From assembly GCA_964016885.1 (NCBI GenBank), contig OZ024741.1, positions 398,412,001 through 398,476,000 on the forward strand: 64,000 bases of DNA. The letters are read 5' to 3'. This document shows, piece by piece, positions 231 through 64,000 of the stretch. This DNA is from Eledone cirrhosa. Taxonomy: Eukaryota. The stretch's first letter is position 1. Each line of letters opens with the position of its first letter. The notes below the pieces were generated by a model. That model was not told where the DNA came from. It was given only the letters and a program-made list of their open reading frames with translations, and did not search any database. The position numbers were made by a program, and so were the translations under genes.

Positions 231-278
231 TCAAAGTAAGAGAAAACCTGACGGCGTGTTTTATGGAGCATAATTATC

Positions 279-2061
279 ATGGCATATCTTATAACCCCAT
301 ATCTCATGTCACCAAAACGTCCTGCGAATATTGCTGATGCAGATGGAAAGGCCAAACACATGAGGAAGAGCCTGACTTTGGAGATAAAGCTGGGCATTTT
401 GAAAAGGAAGGAACAGAGGCAAGGTACGTCCACCATAAGTCGTAACATAGGCCTAGCCCAGTCTACAGTCTGGACTGTTTTAAAAAATAGTGAGGCTGTC
501 AAAAAGGCTGGGGAGAATGCTACGAGTCTACAGAGTAAATTGTTGACCAAACATCGTGAGCCGATTATGGATAGGATGGAAAGGTTGCTCAAAATTTGGA
601 TCGACGACCAAAATCGTCAAAATATGCCTCTGTCTTTAAATGCAATCAGTGAGAAAGCATTGTCCATTATTGACAGGCTCAAGACTGAAATAGGGGTGGA
701 GGACTTTGTATTCAAGGCAAGCAAAGGCTGGTTTGATAAGTTCAAACGATGTTCGAGTCTTCACAACATAAAAGTTACAGGTGAGGTTGCCAGTTCCGAC
801 AAAGAGAGTGCTGAAAATTTCAAGGCAGAGTTAGAGAAATGCATTGCAGAGAAGGGGTACAGCAAAAAACAGGTTATCAATTATGATGAAACAGGACTTT
901 ATTGGAAAAAGATGACCAGTAATACTTATATTGACAAGGAGGAGAAAAGTGCGAAGGAGTTCAAAGCCTCAAAGGACCGCGTTAATCTGTTACTTGGAGG
1001 GAATGCGGAAGGAGATTATCTACCATTCTGAAACTCTAAGAGCACTCAAGGGGTTACTTAAGCAATACCTACCAGTGATATGGAAGTCTAATAAGAAGGC
1101 ATGGCTGATCACTTCAATTTACCAGCATTTTTTCACATCATATCTGTCACCAACCCTTAAGGAATATGCATTAGCTAACAACATTGCCAACTGTTTTCTG
1201 CTATTAGTGGACAACGCCCCCAGCCACCCATGGGCAATAGAAGACTGGTCAGAAAATATTGAAGTTTTGTTTCTCCCCCCAAACACCACAGCTCTCATTC
1301 AGCCGATGGATCAAGCAGTCATCAAAACATTTAAGGCATACTACCAGTGGAGAACCATGCAGCAGTTGATAAAGGGCACAGATGGGCCTGACAAGCCCAC
1401 GATCAGGGAATAGTGGAAATTGTACAACATCAAGCATGGCTTAGACAACATCAAGGCATCTTGGGAAGAAGTGAAGCAGCCTACCATGAACTTGGCCTGG
1501 AAGATATGGCCAGCATGTGTGAATGACTTCCAAGGCTTTGCTGAGGACATTGGTGCGATAAAAAAAGATATTGTAAATCTCTGCCATAGAGCTGGCTTCG
1601 ATGGTGTTAATGATGATGATGTGCAAGACCTTTTGGAAAGCCATGCTGAACCACTCTCCATTGATGAGCTCATAGAACTAGACAAGGCGATACAGGAGAC
1701 AGAAAAAGAAGAGGAGGAGGAAGAAGAACCTGTGCGTGGCTTGGACATAAAAACTCTAAGAGAATGTCTCGGGAGTATCGCAACAATCTCAGAAACCCTG
1801 AAGGAGCGTGACCCCAACCCTTCTAGGAGCAACAAAGTGGCTCAAGACGTCGAGAAAAGCGTCAAGATTTACCAAGAAATGTATGAAGCCAAAAGAAACA
1901 CCGCCAAACAGTCCTCCATCTACTCTTTCTTCACGCCAGTCACACCTGCCAACCGTGCTACAGCTGGCCCTTCAACATCCCCTGCAGTCAACGAGTTTGT
2001 TGGTTTTGAGCCTTCCACATCACCCTCATCCTCCCCTGCCAACTCAGCCCTAGATGAGTAA
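279..2061 (+). pseudogene. Tigger/pogo transposase, disrupted
   Basis: N-terminal HTHs (RKSLTLEIKL..., FKASKGWFDKFK) and catalytic motifs NYDETG, LLVDNAPSHP and LPPNTTALIQPMDQ. Frameshift near 1015-1020, in-frame TAG at 1411-1413, acidic C-terminal region to 2061. Confidence 0.92.
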
Positions 2062-2730: not shown

Positions 2731-5565
2731 TATATATACTAGTGTCTTTTATAATATATATATATATATATATATACTAGTGTCTTTTATATTATATATA
2801 TACTAGTGTCTTTTATATATATATACTAGTGTCTTTTATAATATATATACTCGTGTTTTTATACATATATATACTAGTGTCTTTTATATTATATATATAT
2901 ACTAGTGTCTTTTATAATATATATACTAGTGTCTTTTATAATATATATACTAGTGTCTTTTATAATATATATATACTAGTGTCTTTTATAATATATATAC
3001 TAGTGTCTTTTATAATATATATATATATATACTAGTGTCTTTTATACATATATATATACTAGTGTCTTTTATAATATATATATACTAGTGTCTTTTATAT
3101 TATATATATACTAGTGTCTTTATATATATATTAGTGTCTTTTATAATATATATACTCGTGTTTTTATACATACATATATACTAGTGTCTTTTCTAATATA
3201 GATATACTAGTGTCTTTTATATTATATATATACTAGTGTCTTTTATAATATATATATATATACTAGTGTCTTTTATAATATATATACCAGTGTCTTTTAT
3301 AATATATATATACTAGTGTCTTTTATAATATATATACTAGTGTCTTTTATAATATATATACTAGTGTCTTTTATAATATATATATACTAGTGTCTTTTAT
3401 ATTATATATATACTAGTGTCTTTTATAATATATATATACTAGTGTCTTTTATATATATATACTAGTGTCTTTTATAATATATATACTCGTGTTTTTATAC
3501 ATATATATATACTAGTGTCTTTTCTAATATATATATACTAGTGTCTTTCATATTATATATATACTAGTGTCATTTATATTATATATATACTAGTGTCATT
3601 TATATTATATATATACTAGTGTCATTTATATTATATATATACTAGTGTCTTTTATAATATATATACTAGTGTCTTTTATAATATATATATACTAGTGTCT
3701 TTTATATTATATATATGCTAGTGTCATTTATATTATATATATACTAGTGTCTTTTATAATATATATATACTAGTGTCTTTTATAATATATATATACTAGT
3801 GTCTTTTATAATATATATACTAGTGTCTTTTATGATATATGTATATATATACTAGTGTCTTTTATATATATATACTAGTGTCTTTTATAATATATATATT
3901 AGTGTCTTTTATAATATATATACTCGTGTTTTTATACATATATATACTAGTGTCTTTTATAATATATATACTAGTGTCTTTTATAATATATATACTAGTG
4001 TCTTTTATAATATATATACTAGTGTCTTTTATAATATATATATACTAGTGTCTTTTATAATATATATACTAGTGTCTTTTATAATATATATATAGTGTCT
4101 TTTATAATATATATATACTAGTGTCTTTTATAATATATATATAGTGTCTTTTATAATATATATATACCAGTGTCTTTTATAATATATATACTAGTGTCTT
4201 TTATATTATATATATACTAGTGTCTTTTATAATATATATATACTAGTGTCTTTAATAATATATATATACTAGTGTCTTTTATGATATATATATATATATA
4301 TATACTAGTGTCTTTTATAATATATATATACTAGTGTCTTTAATAATATATATATACTAGTGTCTTTTATGATATATATATATATATATATACTAGTGTC
4401 TTTTATAATATATATATACCAGTGTCTTTTATATTATATATATACTAGTGTCTTTTATATATATATACTAGTGTCTTTTATAATATATATACTCGTGTTT
4501 TTATACATATATATACTAGTGTCTTTTATATTATATATATATACTAGTGTCTTTTATAATATATATATACTAGTGTCTTTTATATTATATATATACTAGT
4601 GTCTTTTATAATATATATATATACTAGTGTCATTTATAATATATATACTAGTGTCTTTTATGATATATATATATATACTAGTGTCTTTTATAATATATAT
4701 ATATATACTAGTGTCTTATAATATATATACCAGTGTCTTTTATAATATATATACCAGTGTCTTTTATAATATATATGTACTAGTGTCTTTTATAATATAT
4801 ATACTTGTGTCTTTTATGATATATATACTAGTGTCTTTTATAATATATATATACTAGTTTCTTTTATATTATATATATACTAGTGCCTTTTATAATATAT
4901 ATATACTAGTGTCTTTTATATATATATACTAGTCTTTCATATATATATACTAGTGTCTTTTATAATATATATACTCGTGTTTTTATACATATATATATAC
5001 TAGTGTCTTTTCTAATATATATATACTAGTGTCTTTTATATTATATATATACTAGTGTCATTTATATTATATATATACTAGTGTCATTTATATTATATAT
5101 ATACTAGTGTCTTTTATAATATATATATACTAGTGTCTTTTATAATATATATTCTAGTGTCTTTTATAATATATATATTCTAGTGTCTTTTATAATATAT
5201 ATATACTAGTGTCTTTTATATTATATATATACTAGTGTCATTTATATTATATATATACTAGTGTCTTTTATAATATATATATACTAGTGTCTTATAATAT
5301 ATATATACTAGTGTCTTTTATAATATATATACTAGTGTCTTTTATAATATATATACTAGTGTCTTTTATAATATATATATACTAGTGTCTTTTATAATAT
5401 ATATACTAGTGTCTTTTATAATATATATATATATATATATGTGAATATAGACATAGAATATTCGAAAATATTCTGTATGTTTATAATAAACATTTTGAAG
5501 ACCTAATCGCTATAGAATAGAATACGTCACGTATTACAATTAGATTCTCGATAAAAGCAAGGGAA

Positions 5566-5608
5566 GTAATCTACGCGTTTCATTCTTGTTAGAAATCATC
5601 AGGACTAC
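5566..5608 (-). ncRNA. Minimal type I hammerhead ribozyme, unit 1
   Basis: Minus strand: GUAGUC-CUGAUGA-UUUCU AACA AGAAU-GAAA-CGCG-UA^GAUUAC. Stem I is extended by a perfect 16-bp duplex (5544-5559 with 5617-5632). Confidence 0.8.
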
Positions 5609-5875
5609 ATATCCAGTGCTTTTATCGAGAATGACACAGCTAGAGACTTATAGAATACTTAGCTGTGTACAGGAACTGGTTTGAAAGAGCGGTTGCCGGT
5701 CCGGCAGAAATTAGAAATTGGAATAAATGCTCTGAAATAGCGATATATATGTGAATATAGACATAGAATATTCGAAAATATTCTGTATGTTTATAATAAA
5801 CATTTTGAAGACCTAATCGCTATAGAATAGAATACGTCACGTATTACAATTAGATTCTCGATAAAAGCAAGGGAA

Positions 5876-5918
5876 GTAATCTACGCGTTTCATTCTTGTT
5901 AGAAATCATCAGGACTAC
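5876..5918 (-). ncRNA. Hammerhead ribozyme, unit 2
   Basis: Identical to unit 1. Confidence 0.8.
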
Positions 5919-6185
5919 ATATCCAGTGCTTTTATCGAGAATGACACAGCTAGAGACTTATAGAATACTTAGCTGTGTACAGGAACTGGTTTGAAAGAGC
6001 GGTTGCCGGTCCGGCAGAAATTAGAAATTGGAATAAATGCTCTGAAATAGCGATATATATGTGAATATAGACATAGAATATTCGAAAATATTCTGTATGT
6101 TTATAATAAACATTTTGAAGACCTAATCGCTATAGAATAGAATACGTCACGTATTACAATTAGATTCTCGATAAAAGCAAGGGAA

Positions 6186-6228
6186 GTAATCTACGCGTTT
6201 CATTCTTGTTAGAAATCATCAGGACTAC
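6186..6228 (-). ncRNA. Hammerhead ribozyme, unit 3
   Basis: Identical to unit 1. Confidence 0.8.
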
Positions 6229-6495
6229 ATATCCAGTGCTTTTATCGAGAATGACACAGCTAGAGACTTATAGAATACTTAGCTGTGTACAGGAACTGGT
6301 TTGAAAGAGCGGTTGCCGGTCCGGCAGAAATTAGAAATTGGAATAAATGCTCTGAAATAGCGATATATATGTGAATATAGACATAGAATATTCGAAAATA
6401 TTCTGTATGTTTATAATAAACATTTTGAAGACCTAATCGCTATAGAATAGAATACGTCACGTATTACAATTAGATTCTCGATAAAAGCAAGGGAA

Positions 6496-6538
6496 GTAAT
6501 CTACGCGTTTCATTCTTGTTAGAAATCATCAGGACTAC
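6496..6538 (-). ncRNA. Hammerhead ribozyme, unit 4
   Basis: Identical to unit 1. Confidence 0.8.
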
Positions 6539-6840
6539 ATATCCAGTGCTTTTATCGAGAATGACACAGCTAGAGACTTATAGAATACTTAGCTGTGTAC
6601 AGGAACTGGTTTGAAAGAGCGGTTGCCGGTCCGGCAGAAATTAGGAATTGGAATAAATGCTCTACGCGTTTCATTCTTGTTAGAATGTCTATATTCACAT
6701 ATATATCGCTATTTCAGAGCATTTATTCCAATTCCTAATTTCTGCCGGACCGGCAACCGCTCTTTCAAACCAGTTCCTGTACACAGCTAAGTATTCTATA
6801 AGTCTCTAGCTGTGTCATTCTCGATAAAAGCACTGGATAT

Positions 6841-6883
6841 GTAGTCCTGATGATTTCTAACAAGAATGAAACGCGTAGATTAC
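6841..6883 (+). ncRNA. Hammerhead ribozyme in the inverted copy
   Basis: gtagtc ctgatga tttctaacaagaat gaaa cgcg ta gattac reads directly on the + strand. Confidence 0.8.
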
Positions 6884-7036
6884 TTCCCTTGCTTTTATCG
6901 AGAATCTAATTGTAATACGTGACGTATTCTATTCTATAGCGATTAGGTCTTCAAAATGTTTATTATAAACATACAGAATATTTTCGAATATTCTATGTCT
7001 ATATTCACATATATATCGCTATTTCAGAGCATTTAT

Positions 7037-7069
<33 letters not shown>

Positions 7070-7962
7070 CTAGTATCTTTTATACATATATATATACTAG
7101 TGTCTTTTATAATATATATATACTAGTGTCTTTTATATTATATATATACTAGTGTCTTTTATATATATATATATTAGTGTCTTTTATAATATATATGCTC
7201 GTGTTTTTATACATATATATACTAGTGTCTTTTATAATATATATATACTAGTGTCTTTTATAATATATATATACGAGTGTCTTTTATAATATATATATAC
7301 TAGTGTCTTTTATAATATATATATAGTGTCTTTTATAATATATATATACTAGTGTCTTTTATAATATATATATAGTGTCTTTTATAAAATATATATACCA
7401 GTCTCTTTTATAATATATATACAAGTGTCTTTTATAATATATATATACTAGTGTCTTTTATAATATATATATACTAGTGTCTTTTATAATATATATATAC
7501 TAGTGTCTTTTATAATATATACTCGTGTTTTTATACATATATATACTAGTGTCTTTAATAATATATATATACTAGTGTCTTTTATAATATATATATACTA
7601 GTGTCTTTATGATATATATATATATACTAGTGTCTTTTATAATATATATATACTAGTGTCTTTTATATATATATATACTAGTGTCCTTTATAATATATAT
7701 ACTCGTGTTTATATACATATATATACTAGTGTCTTTTATATTATATATATATACTAGTGTCTTTTATAATATATATATACTAGTGTCTTTTATATTATAT
7801 ATATACTAGTGTCTTTTATAATATATATATATACTAGTGTCATTTATAATATATATACTAGTGTCTTTTATAATATATATACTAGTGTCTTTTATAATAT
7901 ATATATACTAGTGTCTTTTATATTATATATATACTAGTGTCTTTTATAATATATATATACTA

Positions 7963-8322
7963 CACACGACCGTGACTTCTGGCGTCACGCAGTAATACAG
8001 GGTACCCGACCTCCCATGGGTACATGCTGAAGCATATAAACAATATGCCCCCCCCCCCCACCGCAAGGTGGTCGTGGAGGTGCCACGGCAAAAAAGCACC
8101 CAGCCCACACTGTAAAGTGGACGTGTAGGCGCCACGAAAAAGCACCCAGCACTCACTGTAAATGAGGTTGGTGTTAGGAAGGGCATCCAGCTGTAGAAAT
8201 CAAGCCAGATCAGTTCCTGTATGAGCAAGGCATGGTCAGCCGACCAGACACTGCCCACAACAGGACAACCCGTCTAACCCATGCTAGCGTGGAAGAACGG
8301 ACGTAAAACGGTGATGATGATG
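7963..8322 (+). mobile_element. 5'-truncated RTE LINE 3' end
   Basis: Translates to HDRDFWRHAVIQGTRPP...*, similar to the C-termini DRDLWRYSVIEKTR and DRDKWRDAVLNKTR of the RTE ORFs elsewhere in the window. Followed by the 3' UTR and (GAT)n. Confidence 0.8.
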
Positions 8323-11300
8323 AGTGTCTTTTATAATACATTTATACTAGTGTCTTTTATAATATATATATACTGGTGTCTTTTATAATATATATATACT
8401 AGTGTCTTTTATAATATATATATATACTAGTGCCTTTTATAATATATATATATACTGTCTTTTATGATATATATATATATACTAATGTCTTTTATAATAT
8501 ATATATATACTAGTGTCTTTTATAATATATATATATACTAGTGTCTTTTATAATATATATACTCGTGTCTTTTATAATATATATATATATTGGTGTCTTT
8601 TATAATATATATACTAGTGTCTTTTATAATATATATATACTAGTGTCTTTTATAATATATATATAGTAGTGTCTTTTATAATATATATATACTAGTGTCT
8701 TTTATAATATATATATACTAGTGTCTTTTATAATATATATACTAGTGTCTTTTATATATATATACCAGTCTCTTTTATAATATATATACTAGTGTCTTTT
8801 ATAATATATATATACTAGTGTCTTTTACAATATATATATACTAGTGTCTTTTATAATATATATATAGTGTCTTTTATAATATATATATACTAGTGTCTTT
8901 TATAATATATATACCAGTGTCTTTTATAATATATATACTAGTGTCTTTTATAATATATATATATATATATACTAGTGTCTTTTATACATATATATATATA
9001 CTAGTGTCTTTTATAATATATATATACTAGTGTCTTTTATATTATATATATACTAGTGTCTTTTATATATATATATATTAGTGTCTTTTATAATATATAT
9101 ACTCGTGTTTTTATACATATATATGCTAGTGTCTTTTATATTATATATATATACTAGTGTCTTTTATAATATATATATACTAGTGTCTTTTATATTATAT
9201 ATATACTAGTGTCTTTTATAATATATATATATACTAGTGTCTTTTATAATATATATACCAGTGTCTTTTATAATATATATATACTAGTGTCTTTTATAAT
9301 ATATATACTAGTGTCTTTTATAATATATATACTAGTGTCTTTTATAATATATATATACTAGTCTTTTATATTATATATATACTAGTGTCTTTTATAATAT
9401 ATATATTCTAGTGTCTTTTATATATACATACTAGTGTCTTTTATATATACATACTAGTGTCTTTTATATATATATTCTAGTGTCTTTTATATTATATATA
9501 TACTAGTGTCATTTATATTATATATATACTAGTGTCATTTATATTATATATATACTAGTGTCTTTTATAATATATATACTAGTGTCGTTTATGATATATA
9601 TATATACTAGTGTCTTTTATATATATATACTAGTGTCTTTTATAATATATATACTAGTGTCTTTTATAATATATATACTAGTGTATTTTATAATATATAT
9701 ACTAGTGTCTTTTATAATATATATATACCAGTGTCTTTTATAATATATATTCTAGTGTCTTTTATATTATATATATACTAGTGTCTTTAATAATATATAT
9801 ATACTAGTGTCTTTTATGATATATATATATATATATATACTAGTGTCTTTTATAATATATATATACCAGTGTCTTTTATATTATATATATACTAGGGTCT
9901 TTTATATATATATACTAGTGTCTTTTATAATATATATACTCGTGTTTTTATACATATATATACTAGTGTCTTTTATAATATATATATACGAGTGTCTTTT
10001 ATAATATATATATACTAGTGTCTTTTATAATATATATATAGTGTCTTTTATAATATATATATACTAGTGTCTTTTATAATATATATATATAGTGTCTTTT
10101 ATAAAATATATATACCAGTGTCTTTTATAATATATATACAAGTGTCTTTTATAATATATATATACTAGTGTCTTTTATAATATATATATACTAGTGTCTT
10201 TTATAATATATATATACTAGTGTCTTTTATAATATATATATACTAGTGTCTTTTATAATATATACTCGTGTTTTTATACATATATATACTAGTGTCTTTA
10301 ATAATATATATATACTAGTGTCTTTTATAATATATATATACTAGTGTCTTTTATAATATATATATACTAGTGTCTTTATGATATATATATATATACTAGT
10401 GTCTTTTATAATATATATATACTAGTGTCTTTTATAATATATATACTCGTGTTTATATACATATATATACTAGTGTCTTTTATATTATATATATATACTA
10501 GTGTCTTTTATAATATATATATACTAGTGTCTTTTATATTATATATATACTAGTGTCTTTTATAATATATATATATACTAGTGTCATTTATAATATATAT
10601 ACTAGTGTCTTTTATAATATATATACTAGTGTCTTTTATAATATATATATACTAGTGTCTTTTATATTATATATATACTAGTGTCTTTTATAATATATAT
10701 ATACTAGTGTCTTTTATAATACATTTATACTAGTGTCTTTTATAATATATATATACTGGTGTCTTTTATAATATATATATACTAGTGTCTTTTATAATAT
10801 ATATATATATACTAGTGCCTTTTATAATATATATATATACTGTCTTTTATGATATATATATATATACTAATGTCTTTTATAATATATATATATACTAGTG
10901 TCTTTTATAATATATATATATACTAGTGTCTTTTATAATATATATACTCGTGTCTTTTATAATATATATATATATTGGTGTCTTTTATAATATATATACT
11001 AGTGTCTTTTATAATATATATATACTAGTGTCTTTTATAATATATATATAGTAGTGTCTTTTATAATATATATATACTAGTGTCTTTTATAATATATATA
11101 TACTAGTGTCTTTTATAATATATATACTAGTGTCTTTTATATATATATACCAGTCTCTTTTATAATATATATATACTAGTGTCTTTTATAATATATATAT
11201 ACTAGTGTCTTTTATATAATATATATACTAGTGTCATTTATAATATATATACTAGTGTCTATTATAATATATATATTAGTGTCTTTTATAATATATATTC

Positions 11301-13846
11301 TAATGTCTTTTATAATATATATATATACTAGTGTCTTTTATAATATATATACTAGTGTCTTTTATAATATATATATAGTGTCTTTTATAATATATATATA
11401 CTAGTGTCTTTTATAATATATATACTAGTGTCTTTTATAATATATATATACTAGTGTCTTTTACAATATATATATACTAGTGTCTTTTATAATATATATA
11501 TAGTGTCTTTTATAATATATATATACTAGTGTCTTTTATAATATATATACCAGTGTCTTTTATAATATATATACTAGTGTCTTTTATAATATATATATAT
11601 ATATATATATATACTAGTGTCTTTTATACATATATATATATACTAGTGTCTTTTATAATATATATATACTAGTGTCTTTTATATTATATATATACTAGTG
11701 TCTTTTATATATATATATATTAGTGTCTTTTATAATATATATACTCGTGTTTTTATACATATATATGCTAGTGTCTTTTATATTATATATATATACTAGT
11801 GTCTTTTATAATATATATATACTAGTGTCTTTTATATTATATATATACTAGTGTCTTTTATAATATATATATATACTAGTGTCTTTTATAATATATATAC
11901 CAGTGTCTTTTATAATATATATATACTAGTGTCTTTTATAATATATATACTAGTGTCTTTTATAATATATATACTAGTGTCTTTTATAATATATATATAC
12001 TAGTCTTTTATATTATATATATACTAGTGTCTTTTATAATATATATATTCTAGTGTCTTTTATATATACATACTAGTGTCTTTTATATATACATACTAGT
12101 GTCTTTTATATATATCTACTAGTGTCTTTTATATTATATATATACTAGTGTCATTTATATTATATATATACTAGTGTCATTTATATTATATATATACTAG
12201 TGTCTTTTATAATATATATACTAGTGTCGTTTATGATATATATATATACTAGTGTCTTTTATATATATATACTAGTGTCTTTTATAATATATATACTAGT
12301 GTCTTTTATAATATATATACTAGTGTATTTTATAATATATATACTAGTGTCTTTTATAATATATATATACCAGTGTCTTTTATAATATATATTCTAGTGT
12401 CTTTTATATTATATATATACTAGTGTCTTTAATAATATATATATACTAGTGTCTTTTATGATATATATATATATATATATACTAGTGTCTTTTATAATAT
12501 ATATATACCAGTGTCTTTTATATTATATATATACTAGGGTCTTTTATATATATATACTAGTGTCTTTTATAATATATATACTCGTGTTTTTATACATATA
12601 TATACTAGTGTCTTTTATATTATATATATATACTAGTGTCTTTTATAATATATATATACTTGTCTTTTATATTATATATATACTAGTGTCTTTTATAATA
12701 TATATATATACTAGTGTCATTTATAATATATATACTAGTGTCTTTTATAATATATATACTAGTGTCTTTTATATTATATATATACTAGTGTCTTTTATAA
12801 TATATATATACTAGTGTCTTTTATAATATATATATATATATACTAGTGTCTTTTATGATATATATATATATACTAGTGTCTTTTATAATATATATATATA
12901 CTAGTGTCTTTTATAATATATATACCAGTGTCTTTTATAATATATATACCAGTGTCTTTTATAATATATATATACTAGTGTCTTTTATAATATATATACT
13001 AGTGTCTTTTATAATATATATATACTAGTGTCTTTTATAATATATATACTAGTGTCTTTTATGATATATATATATACTAGTGTCTTTTATAATATATATA
13101 TATACTAGTGTCTTTTATGATATATATATATATATACTAGTGTCCTTTATAATATATATATATACTAGTGTCTTTTATAATATATATATTAGTGTCTTTT
13201 ATAATATATATACTCGTGTTTTTATACATATATATACTAGTGTCTTTTATAATATATATACTAGTGTCTTTTATGATATATATATATATATATACTAGTG
13301 TCTTTTATATATATATACTAGTGTCTTTTATAATATATATATTAGTGTCTTTTATAATATATATACTCGTGTTGTTATACATATATATACTAGTGTCTTT
13401 TATAATATATATACTAGTCCCTTTTATAATATATATATAGTGTCTTTTATAATATATATATACCAGTGTCTTTTATAATATATATACTAGTGTTTTTTAT
13501 ATTATATATATACTAGTGTCTTTTATAATATATATATACTAGTGTCTTTAATAATATATATATACTAGTGTCTTTTATGATATATATATATATATACTAG
13601 TGTCTTTTATAATATATATATACCAGTGTCTTTTATATTATATATATACTAGTGTCTTTTATATATATATACTAGTGTCTTTTATAATATATATATACTC
13701 CTGTTTTTATACATATATATACTAGTGTCTTTTATATTATATATATATACTAGTGTCTTTTATAATATATATATACTAGTGTCTTTTATATTATATATAT
13801 ACTAGTGTCTTTTATAATATATATATATACTAGTGTCATTTATAAT

Positions 13847-14193
13847 AGGTGTCACGACAAAAAAACACACAGTCCACGCTGTAAATGTGGCCGTGTAGGC
13901 AACACGGTAAAAACCTCCCAGCCCCACACTGTAAATGTGGTTGGTGTTAGGAAGGGCATCCAGCTGTAGAAAACCCGCCAGACAGTCCACGCTGTAATGT
14001 GGCCGTGTAGGCAACACGGTAAAAACCTCCCAGCCCCACACTGTAAATGTGGTTGGTGTTAGGAAGGGCATCCAACTGTAGAAAACCCGCCAGACAGTCC
14101 TATGCGAGCAAGACAACCACTCTTGCCTCAAGTGGGAAAACCCCCGTCCAAACCCATGCAAGCGTGGAACACGGACGCTAATCCTGATGATGA
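13847..14193 (+). mobile_element. RTE LINE 3' UTR fragment inserted in the satellite
   Basis: Near-identical to 31056-31417, with an internal duplication and a (GAT)n tail. Confidence 0.85.
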
Positions 14194-17100
14194 TACTAGT
14201 GTCTTTTATAATATATATACTAGTGTCTTTTATAATATATATACTAGTGTCATTTATATTATATATATACTAGTGTCTTTTATAATATATATATACTAGT
14301 GTCTTTTATAATATATATATACTAGTGTCTTTTATAATATATATACTAGTGTCTTTTATGATATATATATATATATATATACTCGTGTCTTTTATATATA
14401 TATACTAGTGTCTTTTATAATATATATATTAGTGTCTTTTATAATATATATACTCGTGTTTTTATACATATATATACTAGTGTCTTTTATAATATATATA
14501 CTAGTGTCTTTTATAATATATATATAGTGTCTTTTATAATATATATATACCAGTGTCTTTTATAATATATATTCTAGTGTCTTTTATATTATATATATAC
14601 TAGTGTCTTTTATAATATATATATACTAGTGTCTTTAATAATATATATATACTAGTGTCTTTTATGATATATATATATATATATATACTAGTGTCTTTTA
14701 TAATATATATATACCAGTGTCTTTTATATGATATATATACTAGGGTCTTTTATATATATATACTAGTGTCTTTTATAATATATATACTCGTGTTTTTATA
14801 CATATATATACTAGTGTCTTTTATATTATATATATATACTAGTGTCTTTTATATATATATACTTGTGTCTTTTATATTATATATATACTAGTGTCTTTTA
14901 TAATATATATATATACTAGTGTCATTTATAATATATATACTAGTGTCTTTTATAATATATATACTAGTGTCTTTTATAATATATATATATACTAGTGTCT
15001 TTTATATTATATATATACTAGTGTCTTTTATAATATATATATACTAGTGTCTTTTATAATATATATATATATACTAGTGTCTTTTATGATATATATATAT
15101 ATACTAGTGTCTTTTATAATATATATATATACTAGTGTCTTTTATAATATATATACCAGTGTCTTTTATAATATATATACCAGTGTCTTTTATAATATAT
15201 ATATACTAGTGTCTTTTATAATATATATACTAGTGTCTTTTATAATATATATATACTAGTGTCTTTTATATATAGATATACTAGTGTCTTTTATAATATA
15301 TATATTAGTGTCTTTTATAATATATATACTAGTGTCTTTTATAATATATATATACTAGTGTCTTTTATATTATATATATACTAGTGTCTTTTATAATATA
15401 TATATACTAGTGTCTTTTATAATATATATATATACTAGTGTCTTTTATATTATATATATACTAGTGTCTTTTATAATATATATATATACTAGTTTCTTTT
15501 ATAATACATATATACTAGTGTCTTTTATAATATATATATACTAGTGTCTTTTATAATATATATATATACTAGTGTCTTTTATGATATATATATATATATA
15601 CTAGTGTCTTTTATAATATATATATATACTAGTGTCTTTTATAATATATGTACCAGTGTCTTTTATAATATATATACCAGTGTCTTTTATAATATATATA
15701 TACTAGTGTCTTTTATAATATATATACTAGTGTCTTTTATAATATATATACTAGTGTCTTTTATAATATATATATACTAGTGTCTTTTATATTATATATG
15801 TACTAGTGTCTTTTATAATATATATATACTAGTGTCTTTTATATATATATACTAGTGTCTTTTATAATATATATACTCGTGTTTTTATACATATATATAT
15901 ACTAGTGTCTTTTCTAATATATATATACTAGTGTCTTTTATATTATATATATACTAGTGTCATTTATATTATATATATACTAGTGTCATTTATATTATAT
16001 ATATACTAGTGTCTTTTATAATATATATATACTAGTGTCTTTTATAATATATATACTTGTGTCTTTTATAATATATATATACTAGTGTCTTTTATATTAT
16101 ATATATACTAGTGTCATTTATATTATATATATACTAGTGTCTTTTATAATATATATATACTAGTGTCTTATAATATATATATACTAGTGTCTTTTATAAT
16201 ATATATACTAGTGTCTTTTATGATATATATATATACTAGTGTCTTTTATATATATATACTAGTGTCTTTTATAATATATATACTAGTGTCTTTTATAATA
16301 TATATACTAGTGTCTTTTATAATATATATACTAGTGTCTTTTATAATATATATACTAGTGTCTTTTATAACATATATATACTAGTGTCTTTTATAATATA
16401 TATACTAGTGTCTTTTATAATATATATATATATATATATACTAGTGTCTTTTATACATATATATATACTAGTGTCTTTTATAATATATATATATACTAGT
16501 GTCTTTTATATTATATATATACTAGTGTCTTTTATATATATATATTAGTGTCTTTTATAATATATATACTTGTGTTTTTATACATATATATTCTAGTGTC
16601 TTTTATATTATATATATATACTAGTGTCTTTTATAATATATATATACTAGTGTCTTTTATATTATATGTATACTAGTGTCTTTTATAATATATATATATA
16701 CTAGTGTCTTTTATAATATATATACCAGTGTCTTTTATAATATATATATACTAGTGTCTTTTATAATATATATACTAGTGTCTTTTATAATATATATACT
16801 AGTGTCTTTTATAATATATATATACTAGTGTCTTTTATATTATATATATACTAGTGTCTTTTATAATATATATATACTAGTGTCTTTTATATATATATAC
16901 TAGTGTCTTTTATATATATATACTAGTGTCTTTTATAATATATATACTCGTATTTTTATACATATATATATACTAGTGTCTTTTCTAATATATATATACT
17001 AGTGTCTTTTATATTATATATATACTAGTGTCATTTATATTATATATATACTAGTGTCTTTTATAATATATATATACTAGTGTCTTTTATAATATATATA

Positions 17101-19354
17101 CTAGTGTCTTTTATAATATATATACTAGTGTCTTTTATAATATATATATACTAGTGTCTTTTATATTATATATATACTAGTGTCATTTATATTATATATA
17201 TACTAGTGTCTTTTATAATATATATATACTAGTGTCTTTTATAATATATATATACTAGTGTCTTTTATAATATATACTCGCGTTTTTATACATATATATA
17301 CTCGTGTTTTTATACATATATATACTAGTGTCTTTTATAATATATATATAGTGTCTTTTATAATATATATATACTAGTGTCTTTTATAATATATATATAG
17401 TGTCTTTTATAATATATATATACCAGTGTCTTTTATAATATATATACTAGTGTCTTTTATATTATATATATACTAGTGTCTATTATAATATATATACTAG
17501 TGTCTTTTATATTATATATATACTAATGTCTTTTATAATATATATATACTAGTGTCTTTTATAATATATATATACTAGTGTCTATTATAATATATATACT
17601 AGTGTCTTTTATATTATATATATACTAATGTCTTTTATAATATATATATATACTAGTGTCTTTTATAATATATATACTAGTGTCTTTTATAATATATATA
17701 TACTAGTGTCTTTTATAATATATATACTAGTGTCTTTTATAATATATATACTAGTGTCTTTAATAATATATATACTAGTGTCTTTTATATTATATAAATA
17801 CTAGTGTCTTTTATACTATATATATACTAGTGTCTTTTATAATATATATATATATATATACTAGTGTCTTTTATAATATATATATATATACTAGTGTCTT
17901 TTATAATATTTATATACTAGTATATTTTATAATATATATATATATATACTAGTGTCTATTATACATATACTAGCGTCTATTATAATATATATATACTAGT
18001 GTCTTTTATAATATATATATATACTAGTGTCTTTTATACATATATAATTTCATCATTATTATTATATATATACTAGTGTCTTTTATACATATATATATAC
18101 TAGTGTCTTTTATAATACATATATACTAGTGTCTTTTATAATACATATATACTAGTGTCTTTTATAATACATATATACTAGTGTCTTCTATAATACATAT
18201 ATACTAGTGTCTTTTATAATACATATATACTAGTGTCTATTATAATATATATACTAGTGTCTTTTATAATATATATATACTAGTGTCTTTTATAATACAT
18301 ATATACTAATGTCTTTTATAATATATATATACTAGTGTCTTTTATAATATATATATACCAGTGTCTATTATAATATATATACTAGTGTCTTTTATATTAT
18401 ATATATACTAATGTCTTTTATAATATATATATATACTAGTGTCTTTTATAATATATATACTAGTGTCTTTTATAATATATATATACTAGTGTCTTTTATA
18501 ATATATATACTAGTGTCTTTTATAATATATATACTAGTGTCTTTAATAATATATATACTAGTGTCTTTTATATTATATAAATACTAGTGTCTTTTATACT
18601 ATATATATACTAGTGTCTTTTATAATATATATATATATATATACTAGTGTCTTTTATAATATATATATATATACTAGTGTCTTTTATAATATTTATATAC
18701 TAGTATATTTTATAATATATATATATATATACTAGTGTCTATTATACATATACTAGCGTCTATTATAATATATATATACTAGTGTCTTTTATAATATATA
18801 TATATACTAGTGTCTTTTATACATATATAATTTCATCATTATTATTATATATATACTAGTGTCTTTTATACATATATATATACTAGTGTCTTTTATAATA
18901 CATATATACTAGTGTCTTTTATAATACATATATACTAGTGTCTTTTATAATACATATATACTAGTGTCTTTTATAATACATATATACTAGTGTCTTTTAT
19001 AATACATATATACTAGTGTCTTTTATAATACATATATACTAGTGTCTATTATAATATATATACTAGTGTCTTTTATAATATATATATACTAGTGTCTTTT
19101 ATAATACATATATACTAATGTCTTTTATATTATATATATACTAGTGTCTTTTATACATATATATATATACTAGTGCCTTTTATAATATATATACATACTA
19201 GTGTCTTTTATATATATATACTAGTGTCTTTTATACATATATATATATACTAGTGTCTTTTCCTATTCTTTTTCCAAAGAAGAGCTTAAGCTCAAAACAT
19301 CAAATAACTTTCTATTTTCATGTTCAGCCAGCTAAGTACATTTGTTTACTTTGT

Positions 19355-29678: not shown

Positions 29679-29960
29679 TCATCATCATCATCATTTTACG
29701 TCCGCTTTTCCATGCTTGCAAGGGTGGGACGGGAACTGATTCTGGCTTGATTTCTACAGCTGGAAGCCCTTCCTAACACCAACCTCATTTTACAGTGGAA
29801 TGATAGGGACCCCAGTCCCTATCATCTCATTTCTACAGCTGAGTAAACTGGAGCAATGTGAAATAAAGTGTCTTGCTCAAGGAAACAACACATCACCCGG
29901 TCTGAGACTTACAACCTTTCGATTGCAAGGCCAATGCTCTAACCACTAAGCCATGTGCCT
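29679..29960 (-). mobile_element. SINE family A
   Basis: Reverse complement of 2395-2730 with internal deletions. Confidence 0.88.
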
Positions 29961-29987
29961 ATATATATATATTTTTTTTTTTTTTTG

Positions 29988-30057
<70 letters not shown>

Positions 30058-30060
<3 letters not shown>

Positions 30061-31417
30061 CCTGGCTAAGACTAAAGTCCTAGTTTGTAGGAAAGAAAAT
30101 AAGGCGGCGGTCCCTTCCGGGAAATGGCCATGCTCAGTGTGTAGGAAAGGCGTAGGTAGAAACTCCATTTTATGTCCCAAATGCAAAGTATGGGTGCATA
30201 AAAGATGTAGTGGGATCACAGTTAAGCTAACTAAGAACATAGATTTTACATGTGGTCGGTGCTCTGGTGCAATAAGTAGCAGCAAGTGCCCACAAAATAC
30301 TAGCTCTTTCAATTGCGCAGAGGGTTCTATAGAAATAGTGGACAGCTTCCGTTACCTGGGTGTTAAAATCAGCAGTGGGGGAGGGTGCTCTGAAAGTACA
30401 GTAGCTAGAGTCGGAACTGGATGGAAAAAGTTCAGAGAGCTTATACCACTATTAGCCGCTAGAGGGTTCTCCCTAAAAATGAAAGGCAGGTTATACGATG
30501 CCTGCATACGAACAGCAATGCTGCATGGCAGTGAGACCTGGGCATTGTGTGCAGAGGATATACGCAGACTAGAGAGGAACGAAGCTTGCATGCTCCGCTG
30601 GATGTGCAATAGTAATATACGTGAACGGCTAAGCATAAACGAACTAAGGAAAAAATTAGAAATAAGAGGGATCAGATGTTGTTTATTCGAGAGAAGGCTA
30701 CGTTGGTACGGTCACGTGATGTGCATGAAAGACGACAGCTGTATAACAAAGTGCAGGGCAATAAAGATAGATGGTAGCCACGGAGTAGGCAGACCCAGGA
30801 AAACCTGGGACAACCTGATAAATTCCGACCTCACACGCTTACACCTCTCCAAGACAATGTCACTGGACCGAGACCTTTGGCGGTACTCAGTAATAGAGAA
30901 GACCCGCCTTACCTAAATACAAAGTAAAAACCTACTACAGTCAGTAGGCATCTCTATCAAAACACCCCCACCCACCCCACCCTATCCACACCGCCCCTTT
31001 CAATGTAAAGTTATGTTGGTACCACAACATCCAGGCCGAAACAAATGAGATCGTGTAGGTGTCACGACAAAAAAAACACACAGTCCACGCTGTAAATGTG
31101 GCCGTGTAAGGCAACACGGTAAAAACCTCCCAGCCCCACACTGTAAATATGGTTGCTGTTAGGAAGGGCATCCAGCTGTAGAAAACCCGCCAGACAGTCC
31201 ACGCTGTAATGTGGCCGTGTAGGCAACACGGTAAAAACCTCCCAGCCCCACACTGTAAATGTGGTTGGTGTTAGGAAGGGCATCCAGCTGTAGAAAACCC
31301 GCCAGACAGTCCTATGCGAGCAAGACAACCACTCTTGCATCAAGTGGGAAAACCCCCGTCCAAACCCATGCAAGCGTGGAACACGGACGCTAAACCTGAT
31401 GATGATGATGATGATGA
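30058..31417 (+). mobile_element. 5'-truncated RTE-clade LINE (PHD-like finger, RT C-terminus, 3' UTR)
   Basis: NLAKTKVL, C4HC3 finger, FRYLG, MLHGSETW, RRLRWYGHV and GRPRKTW, stop at 30916, (GAT)n tail. Confidence 0.92.
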
Positions 31418-40112: not shown

Positions 40113-40707
40113 CATATATATATATATACTCACACGCACACACACACAGAGTAGAATTGAAGTCAGTGTTGCAGCATATGTACACACTTTATTGACATAT
40201 TACAATTGTTTCAATATTAATTAACTCAGGGTACAATCATAATGATGGGGCCCAAACTCTTCAGCATCTCGTCAGTTATACATGTTTATATGTGCAATGG
40301 CACATCTAAACTATTTAAATTCTTCACACTACTGCCACCTTAACTCTGGAATACAACCCAATACAAGATGGACCTCGTAACAGCATTGACTGCTTTGAAT
40401 GGCGTGCTGCCTGTATCTGTAGTTACACACCTAACTAACACATGCACACACACACATATATAAATATATATGTATAGAGAGAGAGAGAGAGGTAGAACAC
40501 TGGAAGGTAATATTCATAGTAGTAGAGCACTCAGTCTATGGGACGAGTTTGGTAGAAGTAGTAACACAACAGTTAGTTCACCATACCGAGAACAATTGTT
40601 TCACCTTATGCAGATCTTAAGCTCGGACTCTGAAGACCCGCATAAGGTGAAACAATTGTTTTCAGTGTGGTGAACTAACTGTTGTGTTACTACTTCTATA
40701 TATATAT

Positions 40708-41860
40708 AATGGTACTGTCAGTAAAGTCGGGGTAGGAATGGAGTTTAGTGAGGAATTCCAGATACAAGTAGGAGTACATCAAGGTTCGGTCCTCAGCCCG
40801 CTCTTGTTCATTATAGTCCTCCAAGCCATAACAGAGGAGTTTAAGACTGGCTGTCCATGGGAACTTCTCTATGCTGACGATCTGGTTCTTATAGCAGAAT
40901 CAGTAGAGGAATTAGAGAATAAATTCTGGCTATGGAAACAGCAGTTGGAAGCAAGAGGACTGAGAGTGAACCTAGCTAAGACAAAAGTGTTGATGAGTAG
41001 AAAAGAGGACAAAACTCTGATTCCGTCAGGGAAATGGCCATGTTCGATATGCAGAAAAGGAACTGGTATAAATTCTATAAAATACACACAATGCAGATCC
41101 TGGGTACACAAGAGATGTAGCGGGATAGCAGGCAAACTAACAGGTAGGGAGAAATACGTATGCAGTAGATGTACAGGGAAATTAGACAGTAGAAGTTGCA
41201 TTGATAGACACATTTTTCAAATGCAGGCAGGTGCTATAGAAGTGGTGGATAGCTTACGGTACCTAGGAGATCAGATTAGCATGGGAGGGGGGTGTTCCGA
41301 GGCCATAGTATCTAGAATAAGGATGGGTTGGAAGAAGTTTAGGGAGCTGCTTCCTCTGCTGACGAAGAAGAGTTTCTCCCTGCGTACGAAAGGCCGGTTA
41401 TATGATGCCTGTGTGAGGAACGCGATGCTGCATGGTAGTGAGACATGGGCAGCAACTGCAGAGGATATGCGACGGCTGGAGAGAAATGAGGCAAGCATGC
41501 TCCGTTGGATGTGCAGTGTAAATGTGTGTGAACGACCCAGCATGGATGTGTTGAGAGAGAAACTGTCTGAGAGGGATAGAATGTAATGTGCGAGAGAGGA
41601 GCCTGAGGTGGTATGGACATGTGATGCGCATGGAGGATGACCGATGGGCGAAGAAGTGCCAGGAAATGCCAGTTGAAGGAAGACGTGGTAGAGGTAGACC
41701 ACGAAAAACATGGGCGGAGGTGGTGAAAACAGACCTCAGATCGCTGAAGCTCACGGTGATGACGAAGGACCGTGACAAGTGGAGAGATGCTGTGCTGAAT
41801 AAGACCCGTCCCAGCCTTGCAAGCAGGGAAGAGCGGGTGTAAAATGATGATGGTGATGAT
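40708..41860 (+). mobile_element. 5'-truncated RTE-clade LINE, second subfamily
   Basis: GVHQGSVLSPLLF, LLYADD, degenerate PHD-like finger, RYLG, HGSETW, frameshift near 41570, RWYGHV, GRPRKTW and a (GAT)n tail. Confidence 0.92.
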
Positions 41861-48175: not shown

Positions 48176-48262
48176 TTAAATTAAAACTTTTCTATTTTCT
48201 GAAATGATAAAATCGACCATTTTGTTTTCTAAATTTAAATATTTGTCATCTTTCTGCTACAG

Positions 48263-48372
<110 letters not shown>

Positions 48373-48406
48373 CACACACACACGCTCTCTCAATATATAT
48401 ATATAT

Positions 48407-48441
<35 letters not shown>

Positions 48442-48493
48442 CACAAATGGAAGTTTGGCATAATCGAAGCTCTGGCTACAGCTATGTTAATAT

Positions 48494-48528
<35 letters not shown>

Positions 48529-49737
48529 ATAAGGCGCCGGTCCCTTCCGGGAAATGGCCATGCTCAGCGTGTAGGAAAGGCGTAGGTAGAAACTCCATTT
48601 TATGTCCCAAATGCAAAGTATGGGTGCATAAAAGATGTGGGATCACAGGTAAGCTAACTAAGAACATAGATTTTACATGTGGCCGGTGCTCTGGCGCAAT
48701 AAGTAGCAGCAAGTGCCCACAAAATACTAGCTCTTTCAATTGCGCAGAGGGTTCTATAGAAATAGTGGACAGCTTCCGTTACCTGGGTGACAAAATCAGC
48801 AGTGGGGGAGGGTGCTCTGAAAGTACAGTAGCTAGAGTCAGAACTGGATGGAAAAAGTTCAGAGAGCTTATACCACTATTGGCCGCTAAAGGGTTCTCTC
48901 TAAAAATGAAAGGCAGGTTGTATGATGCCTGCATACGAACAGCAATGTTGCATGGCAGTGAGACCTGGGCATTGTGTGCAGAGGATATACGCAGACTAGA
49001 GAGGAACGAAGCTTGCATGCTCCGCTGGATGTGTAATAGTAATATACGTGAACGGCAAAGCATAAACGAACTAAGGGAAAAATTAGAAATAAGAGGGATC
49101 AGATGTTGTTTACTCGAGAGAAGGCTACGTTGGTATGGTCACGTGATGCGCATGAAAGACGACAGCTGTATAAAAAAGTGCAGGGCAATAAAGATAGACG
49201 GTAGCCACGGAGTAGGCAGACCCAGAAAAACCTGGGACGACCTGATAAATTCCGACCTCACACACTTACACCTCTCCAAGACAATGTCACTGGACCGAGA
49301 TCTTTGGCGGTACTCAGTAATAGAGAAGACCCGCCTTGCCTAAATACAAAGTAAACCTACTACAGTCAGTAGGCATCTCTAACAAAATACACCCCCGTCA
49401 CACCACCCCCACCCCATCCACACCGCCCCTTTCAATGTAAAGTTACGTTGGTGCCACAACATCCAGGCCGAAACAAATGAGATCGTGTAGGTGTCACGAC
49501 AAAAAAAACACACAGTTCACGCTGTAATGTGGCCGTGTAGGCAACACGGTAAAAACCTCCCAGTCCCACACTGTAAATGTGGTTGGTGTTAGGAAGGGCA
49601 TCCAGCTGTAGAAAACCCGCCAGACAGTCCTATGCGAGCAAGACAACCACTCTTGCCTCAAGTGGGAAAACTCCCGTCCAAACCCATGCAAGCGTGGAAC
49701 ATGGACGTTAAACGATGATGGTGATGATGATGATGAT
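48529..49737 (+). mobile_element. 5'-truncated RTE-clade LINE, close paralogue of 30058-31417
   Basis: Near-identical translation (KWPCSACRKG...EKTRLA*), 3' UTR and (GAT)n. Confidence 0.92.
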
Positions 49738-62100: not shown

Positions 62101-64000
62101 CAAGGAAGACATGGGCAGTAGTGGTGGAAGGTCACCTCAAGGAAGACATGGGTAGTAGTGGTGGAAGTTGACCTCAAGGAAGACATGGGCAGTAGTGGTG
62201 GAAGTTGACCTCAAGGAAGACATGGGTAGTAGTGGTGGAAGTTGACCTCAAGGAAGACATGGGCAGTAGTGGTGGAAGTTGACCTCAAGGAAGACATGGG
62301 CAGTAGTGGTGGAAGTTGACCTCAAGGAAGACATGGGTAGTAGTGGTGGAAGTTGACCTCAAGGAAGACATGGGCAGTAGTGGTGGAAGTTGACCTCAAG
62401 GAAGACATGGGTAGTAGTGGTGGAAGTTGACCTCAAGGAAGACATGGGCAGTAGTGGTGGAAGTTGACCTCAAGGAAGACATGGGCAGTAGTGGTGGAAG
62501 TTGACCTCAAAGAAGACATGGCAATAGTGGTGGAAGTTGACCTCAAGGAAGACATGGGCAGTAGTGGTGGAAGGTCACCTCAAGGAAGACATGGGCAATA
62601 GTGGTGGAAGTTGACCTCAAAGAAGACATGGGCAGTAGTGGTGGAAGTTGACCTCAAGGAAGACATGGGCAGTAGTGGTGGAAGTTGACCTCATGGAAGA
62701 CATGGGCAATAGTGGTGGAAGTTGACCTCAAGGAAGACATGGGTAGTAGTGGTGGAAGGTCACCTCAAGGAAGACATGGGCAATAGTGGTGGAAGGTCAC
62801 CTCAAGGAAGACATGGGCAGTAGTGGTGGAAGTTGACCTCAAAGAAGACATGGGCAATAGTGGTGGAAGTTGACCTCAAGGAAGACATGGGCAATAGTGG
62901 TGGAAGGTCACCTCAAGGAAGACATGGGCAATAGTGGTGGAAGTTGACCTCAAGGAAGACATGGGCAGTAGTGGTGGAAGTTGACCTCAAGGAAGACATG
63001 GGCAATAGTGGTGGAAGTTGACCTCAAGGAAGACATGGGCAATAGTGGTGGAAGGTCACCTCAAGGAAGACATGGGCAATAGTGGTGGAAGTTGACCTCA
63101 AGGAAGACATGGGCAGTAGTGGTGGAAGTTGACCTCAAAGAAGACATGGGCAATAGTGGTGGAGGTTGACCTCAAGGAAGACATGGGCAGTAATGGTGGA
63201 AGTTGACCTCAAGGAAGACATGGGAAGTTGACCTCAAGGAATACATGGGCAGTAGTGGTGGAAGTTGACCTCAAGGAAGACATGGGTAGTAGTGGTGGAA
63301 GGTCACCTCAAGGAAGACATGGGCAGTAGTGGTGGAAGTTGACCTCAAGGAAGACATGGGTAGTAGTGGTGGAAGGTCACCTCAAGGAAGACATGGGCAG
63401 TAGTGGTGGAAGTTGACCTCAAGGAAGACATGGGCAGTAGTGGTGGAAGTTGACCTCAAGGAAGACATGGGCAATAGTGGTGGAAGTTGACCTCAAGGAA
63501 GACATGGGTAGTAGTGGTGGAAGTTGACCTCAAGGAAGACATGGGCAGTAATGGTGGAAGTTGACCTCAAGGAAGACATGGGTAGTAGTGGTGGAAGTTG
63601 ACCTCAAGGAAGACATGGGCAGTAGTGGTGGAAGTTGACCTAAAGGAAGACATGGGCAGTAGTGGTGGAAGGTCACCTCAAGGAAGACATGGGCAGTAGT
63701 GGTGGAAGTTGACCTCAAGGAAGACATGGGCAGTAGTGGTGGAGGTTGGCCTCAAGGAAGACATGGGCAATAGTGGTGGAAGTTGACCTCAAGGAAGACA
63801 TGGGCAGTAGTGGTGGAAGTTGACCTCAAGGAAGACATGGGTAGTAGTGGTGGAAGTTGACCTCAAGGAAGACATGGGCAATAGTGGTGGAAGTTGACCT
63901 CAAAGAAGACATGGGCAGTAGTGGTGGAAGTTGACCTCAAGGAAGACATGGGCAATAGTGGTGGAAGTTGACCTCAAAGAAGACATGGGCAGTAGTGGTG
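53190..64000. repeat. 37-bp purine-rich minisatellite GACCTCAAGGAAGACATGGGCAGTAGTGGTGGAAGTT (~290 units, runs off the window)
   Basis: Continuous 37-bp period with a few recurrent variants and occasional 25-bp deletion units. Confidence 0.98.

What the first reader, a model, noticed from the sequence alone, without database searches (positions are those of the whole stretch)
6655..7042. Tandem/inverted junction starts at the predicted ribozyme cleavage site, and the inverted copy exceeds one monomer
Seen: unit 4 stops at ...aaatgctct and is joined to acgcgtttcattcttgttagaa (6664-6685; TCT microhomology). This is the complement of the nucleotides just 5' of the predicted cleavage site (GAAACGCGUA^). 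The following inverted copy is ~357 bp, crosses the unit junction twice, and shares the single diagnostic variant of unit 4 (ttaGgaattg). Inference: RT jumped onto the 3' end of a self-cleaved RNA, then copied a multimeric or circular template. This would be a fossil footprint of ribozyme activity in vivo.
Basis: partly seen in the sequence, partly recalled or inferred. Interest (0 to 1): 0.75.

Follow-up and report, generated by a model that had tools for sequence, protein, structure and literature searches.

The report
Retrozyme inversion junction: chance cut-site match
This is the centre of one of over a thousand back-to-back insertions of a 310-base repeat carrying a predicted self-cutting RNA; a 23-base patch here touches the predicted cut site, but junctions in other copies fall all along the repeat, so the match is likely chance, while the copies as a group suggest the RNA is likely copied straight through that site from both ends of the cut host DNA.

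Summary
The sequence description is right: a 3.97-unit antisense arm, TCT microhomology, a 23-25-base patch, then a 358-base inverted arm sharing one variant. The unit is 310 bp, and the inverted arm crosses the predicted cut only once. In 101 other copies, 0 of 13 internal jumped pieces start at the cut. 3 of 204 inner ends lie there (2.6 expected), and arms cross the site 911 times. Genome-wide patterns found one other candidate (0.5 expected by chance); end-jumps are under about 8% of jumps, and this junction is a true one with about 10% probability. What is real is a young hammerhead retrozyme with a Penelope-type footprint: 90 of 91 complete inverted copies pair a '165' end with a '126-139' end in (TA)n, with multimer arms on both sides. 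Better traces of ribozyme function: 0 of 9 array-wide variants break the hammerhead against 14 of 15 single-unit variants, and in one locus both arms stop exactly at the cut. The scan already reported this architecture on other DNA of this genome.

The parts
5433..6663 (-). Left arm: 3.97 head-to-tail units of the 310-bp retrozyme, RNA sense on the minus strand; outer end at monomer 130-139, inner end at 149
6661..6685 (-). Central copied patch, monomer 288-310 plus 1-2; includes the two microhomologies; predicted cut maps between 6662 and 6663
6661..6663 (.). TCT microhomology between left arm and patch; spans the predicted cut
6685..7042 (+). Right (inverted) arm: 358 bp, monomer 118 to 165; outer end at the fixed 165 site
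6841..6883 (+). Predicted type I hammerhead in the right arm; predicted cut after 6877
6496..6538 (-). Predicted hammerhead in the innermost full left-arm unit (further copies 310, 620 and 930 bases to the left; cuts at 6501/6502, 6191/6192, 5881/5882, 5571/5572)
6645..6645 (-). Variant at monomer 167 in the innermost left-arm unit only
6734..6734 (+). Same variant at monomer 167 in the right arm; mirror partner of 6645 across a 52-base loop
5418..5440 (.). Left (TA)n target run (23 letters; 9-15 in 12 neighbouring minisatellite units)
7041..7069 (.). Right (TA)n target run (29 letters)
2763..19261 (.). Host 26-bp TA-rich minisatellite array that received the insertion

Best explanation
The junction is the centre of a two-armed insertion of a 310-base hammerhead repeat in a TA tract, where two cDNAs that were likely primed from the two cut target ends were likely joined through a 23-base copied patch, and the patch's overlap with the predicted ribozyme cut is likely chance. 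Steps: (1) shown: arms point outwards, ends sit at monomer 130-139 and 165 in (TA)n, as in 90 of 91 complete inverted copies; (2) inferred from PMC11167929: a Penelope-type RT/GIY-YIG protein nicks both strands of AT-rich DNA and starts at two neighbouring internal RNA sites; (3) shown: arms run through the predicted cut with no excess of stops; inferred: the template was a ligated circle or an uncut multimer, not a cut linear monomer; (4) inferred: both enzymes stalled in the same template unit (the one with 167C), 31 bases apart; (5) inferred: the two cDNA 3' ends, being of the same polarity, were joined by microhomology-guided copying of a short stretch (pairing on TCT/AGA, one of 5 AGA sites in the unit), as at about 1 centre in 9 of other copies.
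For:: 90 of 91 complete inverted elements pair 165 with 126-139; 11 of 101 elements have extra internal pieces, 13 pieces, 0 starting at 310; 3 of 204 inner ends at 308-310/1 against 2.6 expected; stops just after against just before the cut: 5 v 5 (10 nt), 28 v 23 (30 nt, p=0.29), 51 v 38 (60 nt, p=0.10); 911 crossings. with parsing in 18, 25, 36: of 4, 6, 3, 6 and 0 hits, only L175 and the window are junctions; 0.5 expected by chance; upper 95% share of end-jumps 7.7%; posterior for the window 4-42%, 8-15% at shares of 1-2%; 11 arm-to-arm joints in an independent short-read contig set are scattered too. RT plus C-terminal GIY-YIG frames exist in the genome (938 aa, L211).
Against: The end-jump cannot be excluded for one locus. 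L175 has a 38-base piece ending exactly at 310 with 4-base pairing, and one low-depth contig in run X2 joins 310 to 46 with 5 letters between (depth 2.65), so rare end-jumps may exist. Only about a tenth of the copies were parsed (101 of 1,034, all from the first 267 Mb of contig C1). The genome-wide patterns catch about 61% of true end-jumps and none under 15 bases. The partner enzyme is not identified: 0 of 26 GIY-YIG loci showed this unit as their terminal repeat. The shared 167C could instead come from later hairpin-guided conversion.
Confidence: 0.72

Rival explanations
1. One reading: the left cDNA jumped onto the 3' end of a self-cleaved RNA by pairing its last T with A310, copied 22 bases and was then joined to the right cDNA; the two further matching letters are coincidence.
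For: The cut lies inside the TCT. A second genomic piece ends exactly at 310 (L175) and is similarly short. One weak contig in X2. Cut linear RNA seems to be used at times: both arms of L174 end at position 1, 0.011 such loci expected.
Against: 0 of 13 jumped pieces in the sample; 2 genome-wide including this ascertained case against 0.5 expected, P(at least one other) = 0.39; a boundary at position 2 arises in only 2.8% of true end-jumps.
Confidence: 0.12
2. The patch and the shared variant are DNA-level events: a cDNA 3' end snapped back on cDNA (host polymerase, templated insertion), and 167C arose once and was copied to the mirror arm by hairpin-guided template switching after insertion.
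For: Read on the minus strand the patch is a sense extension of the right cDNA, so a DNA template fits equally (sequence). 6645 and 6734 are direct partners across a 52-base loop. Inversion junctions of L1 show end-joining features (PMC11702581 passages; PMC2912911 passages).
Against: In L119 both arms change haplotype in register from their outer ends despite lengths of 925 and 5473 bp, which hairpin conversion would not give; L093 and L170 share whole multi-unit blocks. No mirrored 167C was seen in the 10 other loci within the 3 kb fetched.
Confidence: 0.13
3. The junction is an assembly or sequencing chimera of a palindromic repeat.
For: No independent contig bridges this junction; palindromes and tandem arrays are known assembly hazards (PMC8557442 passages).
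Against: The same layout with fixed outer ends and different flanks recurs in 94 of 101 elements; an independent short-read contig set holds 11 junctions of the same class.
Confidence: 0.03

Closest known systems
Animal non-LTR retrozymes (Cervera and de la Pena 2020, PMC7229834: passages and Discussion read; Li, Clavereau and Pollet 2026, bioRxiv 10.64898/2026.07.22.740005: parts 1-3 of 5 read)
   Same: Non-coding tandem unit in the 170-400 nt range with one type I hammerhead per unit, high copy number, proposed circRNA template copied by a Penelope-like RT.
   Different: The parts read do not describe head-to-head two-armed multimers, paired fixed ends or junction statistics. No RNA or cleavage was shown here.
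Penelope-like element insertions (PMC8557442 passages; PMC3846280 passages; PMC4209133 passages)
   Same: Inverted 5'-truncated copy, a 30-40 bp tail at one end only, (TA)n targets, hammerhead with a short palindromic stem III.
   Different: No ORF; both arms are multimers of the small unit (up to 5.9 kb). PMC3846280 explains inverted junctions by self-priming on an antisense template, whereas here the inner ends are unrelated (13 of 94 within 20 nt, 12.4 expected), which fits two primed cDNAs.
Poseidon PLE of Anolis in vitro (Frangieh et al. 2024, PMC11167929: parts 1-2 of 4 read)
   Same: Both target strands are cut and extended; RT starts at two adjacent internal sites that bound the tail; AT-rich targets; hammerhead cleavage not needed for insertion and uncut RNA is the main substrate.
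   Different: That work used linear RNA of an autonomous element; circles, multimer arms and the joining of two cDNAs were not tested in the parts read.
L1 twin priming (PMC2912911 and PMC11702581, passages read)
   Same: Two cDNAs from the two target ends, joined by microhomology, sometimes with a middle piece from a template switch.
   Different: In L1 the second primer lands anywhere upstream and about 30% of copies are inverted; here the second end is fixed and 94 of 101 elements are inverted.

Membership tests
Animal non-LTR retrozyme | Head-to-tail units of about 170-400 nt, each with a type I hammerhead | tested here: met
   310-bp unit, one core per unit on one strand only; no Rfam hit at gathering score, so the call rests on motif and pairing
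Animal non-LTR retrozyme | No protein-coding capacity; dispersed high-copy insertions | tested here: met
   4,593 exact core hits, 1,034 fixed ends; no window frame of 180 aa or more among those listed lies in the element
Animal non-LTR retrozyme | Self-cleavage of the RNA | tested here: inconclusive
   Indirect only: 0 of 9 array-wide against 14 of 15 single-unit substitutions break the hammerhead; but L172 and probably C1483 carry G at the cut base in all units
Animal non-LTR retrozyme | Expression as linear and circular monomer RNA | not testable with these tools
   No RNA holder listed
Penelope-mobilised insertion | Inverted copy, tail at one end, (TA)n target | tested here: met
   90 of 91 complete inverted elements pair 165 with 126-139
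Penelope-mobilised insertion | An autonomous RT plus GIY-YIG element that shares the terminal sequence | tested here: inconclusive
   Such frames exist but 0 of 26 loci examined carried this unit as terminal repeat; 150 of 10,597 candidates were scored
Breakpoint fossil of ribozyme cleavage (end-jump) | Jumped pieces enriched at the cut 3' end | tested here: not met
   0 of 13 in the sample; 1 other genome-wide against 0.5 expected
Breakpoint fossil of ribozyme cleavage (run-off) | Arm ends enriched at the cut 5' end | tested here: not met
   8 ends in 7 loci against 5.7 expected, P = 0.22; one locus with both arms at position 1 is the exception

The most novel reading that the evidence does not exclude
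Each insertion records double rolling-circle target-primed reverse transcription: a Penelope-type dimer primes both cut DNA ends on one hammerhead-made RNA circle and both enzymes run round it many times, so a variant in one monomer becomes fixed in every unit of both arms; now and then a cut linear RNA is used instead, leaving run-off ends (L174) or a jump onto the cut 3' end (L175, perhaps this window).
Probability: 0.45. Interest if true: 0.7.

Novelty: new member of a known kind. Interest (0 to 1): 0.4.

Why it matters
The single junction matters little: it is probably chance. The family matters more. How retrozyme arrays arise (rolling-circle reverse transcription or later DNA expansion) and how Penelope elements get inverted copies with a tail at one end are open questions in the papers read. 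Here over a thousand young copies give countable answers: two fixed priming sites, free passage through the cut site, and selection against broken hammerheads among variants fixed across arrays. This makes an in vitro test on circular, multimeric and cut RNA straightforward. Other agents in this scan have already reported the architecture.

Tried and rejected
A first period guess of 307 was wrong and corrected to 310. The DNA search of the own genome found nothing; patterns worked. The pattern missed haplotypes varying at 294/295 and was redone. Ligation scar at the cut base: five arrays have a changed base 310 in all units, but an arbitrary variant (88T) is shared by five arrays too, so it is not special. 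Locus-private variants: 13 of 29 array-wide variants were seen in one sampled locus only, but the one tested genome-wide was not private (52 hits: 25 in L125, 23 in four other arrays, 4 single), so this does not prove a circle for each insertion. A-to-I editing signature: A>G 9 against T>C 7 among 38 multi-unit variants, p = 0.26; rejected. Arms stopping at the partner's priming site: 13 of 94 against 9.1 expected and 4 of 94 against 7.9; not general. Fold-back as the source of the inverted arm: rejected because both outer ends are fixed and short loci such as L032 have sequence in each arm that the other lacks. No RNA holder listed. Runs X1, X4, X8, X10, X12, X17, X21 gave one record each and none bridged the junction. 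Literature: 'Penelope + twin priming + inverted' 2 papers, off topic by title; rolling-circle/retrozyme search 30 papers, 20 listed; 'retrozyme, inverted, target-primed, circular RNA, breakpoint' 4 papers, 3 listed, off topic; 'template jumping + cyclic phosphate' 3 papers on tRNA fragments; 'octopus + hammerhead + Penelope' 5 papers, 4 listed. These were seen as listings only. No supplementary files were read; model figures there (for example Supplementary Figure S9 of PMC7229834) may bear on novelty.

Full report
Observation. The window holds, inside a 26-bp TA-rich minisatellite (2763-19261), an insertion of a 310-bp repeat. With position 1 set just after the predicted hammerhead cut, the insertion reads: TA run; antisense arm 5433-6663 (monomer 139 down through 3.97 units to 149); TCT shared; patch 6661-6685 (monomer 2 down to 288); one A shared; sense arm 6685-7042 (118 to 165, 358 bp); TA run. 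The only variant is at monomer 167, at 6645 and 6734. The predicted cut maps between 6662 and 6663, inside the TCT. The hammerhead is type I with a six-pair stem I and a self-complementary stem III hexamer, the dimer-type design described in PMC4209133 (passages); the region folds far better than shuffles (z = -6.56) but has no Rfam hit.

The family. A 29-base core pattern has 4,593 exact hits in the 3.0-Gb genome, a lower bound because common haplotypes vary inside it. A TA run joined to position 165 occurs 1,034 times. I fetched 94 of the first 100 listed places and had the other 6; all lie in the first 267 Mb of contig C1. Parsing gave 101 elements: 91 complete inverted, 3 inverted with the far end outside the stretch, 7 single-armed (3 of them running off the stretch). 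90 of the 91 pair a 165 end with a 126-139 end; 72 of 91 have both arms longer than a unit; median arms 1,215 and 961 bp; arm lengths correlate weakly (rho 0.29, p = 0.006). The window is a typical member. Two fixed ends about 30 bases apart match the Penelope 'tail' present at one end of inverted insertions (PMC8557442 and PMC3846280, passages) and the two adjacent RT start sites, used on both cut strands, found in vitro (PMC11167929). So the right arm likely began at the right target end, not at the junction.

11 of 101 elements have internal pieces like the window's patch; of 13 such pieces none has its RNA 3' boundary at or near 310. Of 204 inner ends, 3 lie at 308-310 or 1, against 2.6 expected. 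Arms cross the site 911 times.

Test of the claim, whole genome. Patterns for the cut 3' end followed by foreign letters gave 4, 6, 3, 6 and 0 hits (one search returned the same six places). Parsing (L178 and L179 lie in the same array as L177 and were not parsed apart) left two junctions: the window and L175, where a 38-base piece ends at 310 with 4 shared letters. Chance expectation is 0.5; the patterns would catch about 61% of true end-jumps; the upper 95% bound on their share of all jumps is 7.7%. Because the window's match runs two letters past the cut, which a true end-jump gives in 2.8% of cases, its posterior is 8-15% at shares of 1-2% and at most 42%; L175 is the better candidate (73-84% at those shares). 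For run-off at the cut 5' end, one search gave 76 hits, mostly base changes at 310; 8 arm ends in 7 loci are real, against 5.7 expected (P = 0.22); the C1483 array was judged from hit spacing alone. One locus, L174, has both arms ending exactly at position 1 (0.011 expected), a likely case of a cut linear template. An independent short-read contig set (run X2) holds 11 arm-to-arm joints, scattered, and one contig at depth 2.65 that joins 310 to 46; no contig bridges the window's own junction.

The shared variant. 167C has 11 hits genome-wide, each in a different locus; in the 10 other loci it is a single unit and no mirror copy was seen in the 3 kb fetched. The simplest reading is that both cDNAs copied the same template unit and stalled in it 31 bases apart. 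Other mosaics: L119 and L101 change in register from the outer ends, L170 from the inner ends, L093 shares the inner two units of one arm with all of the other, L035 has one variant unit in each arm out of register. These need either uncut mixed multimers or a switch between circles; later hairpin conversion is possible for the window, where the two sites are partners across a 52-base loop.

Circle or multimer. 29 variants are fixed in nearly all passes of both arms of at least one locus, which needs a one-monomer bottleneck somewhere in the lineage and fits circles, as proposed in PMC7229834 (Discussion) and PMC4209133. The one variant tested genome-wide was shared by five arrays, so a circle is not proved for each insertion, and the mosaics fit uncut multimers, in line with PMC11167929, where uncut RNA was the main substrate. 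The question stays open.

A better trace of ribozyme function. Within the hammerhead, 0 of 9 array-wide substitutions break the core or a stem pair, against 14 of 15 single-unit substitutions (Fisher p = 8e-6); two of the nine hit position 7, the free core base (numbering recalled). Caveats: the classes are mine, a one-base insertion beside the cut that is fixed in 7 loci was left out as an indel, and L172 (outside the sample) and probably C1483 carry G at the cut base in all units, which by the NUH rule (recalled) should not cut.

Partner. The genome has at least 150 GIY-YIG matches and frames with RT plus C-terminal GIY-YIG, one of 938 aa, but none of 26 loci examined carried this unit as its terminal repeat; the hits found were separate small hammerhead repeats in TA tracts.

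Verdict. The junction is real in the assembly and ordinary for its family; the cut-site coincidence is probably chance. The family is a new member of the animal non-LTR retrozymes with a Penelope footprint (10.64898/2026.07.22.740005). My searches found no paper on two-armed multimer insertions, but earlier notes of this scan describe it for this genome; I had reached that reading before looking them up. Those notes also report cut-site pile-ups in other families, which I did not test.

Noticed in passing
L174:1351-1653 of L066 numbering (G000:C3:172484293-172484595): Both arms (168 to 1 and 1 to 130) end exactly at the predicted cut with a 5-base loop; likely run-off on a cut linear RNA. The junction is partly duplicated downstream.
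   Followed up: partly
L175:1484-1592: A 38-base piece ending exactly at monomer 310, joined by 4 shared letters to position 46-49; the best candidate for a jump onto a cut 3' end.
   Followed up: partly
L172 (G000:C28:81391337-81393863) and G000:C1483:21317-27203: Arrays with G at the cut base in all units of both arms, which should not self-cleave; origin unexplained.
   Followed up: partly
L119, L101, L093, L170, L035, L037, L105: Mosaic arrays mixing haplotypes, some in register between the two arms; they constrain the template form.
   Followed up: partly
L037:2599-2870: A 272-base foreign, more GC-rich sequence lies between the two arms; possibly a captured piece of another RNA.
   Followed up: no
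(runs X1, X4, X8, X10, X12): The unit is held by 20 runs of 16 studies with 17 organism labels; five runs give one 340-base contig (310 plus 30, a closed cycle) nearly identical to the unit at depth 10-365. Trace DNA, related species or circular RNA cannot be told apart, as run kinds are not on record.
   Followed up: partly
L220:8500-8705, L222:6130-6326, L216:1679-1812, L202:2440-2870: Other small hammerhead repeats in TA tracts share the core or the 59-154 region with this unit (74-82% identity); some are short palindromes centred in the ribozyme.
   Followed up: no
L211:2809-5622 (-): An intact 938-aa frame with RT and C-terminal GIY-YIG domains, with 96-98% identical copies elsewhere: a young Penelope-like element and a candidate enzyme for tests.
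   Followed up: partly
window 53197-64000: A 37-bp tandem array of about 293 copies with a strong purine skew.
   Followed up: no
window 252-1028, 29906-30913, 40651-41583, 48180-49340: Frames with a Tc5/CENP-B DNA-binding domain, and RT plus PHD or PHD-only domains: other transposon pieces.
   Followed up: no
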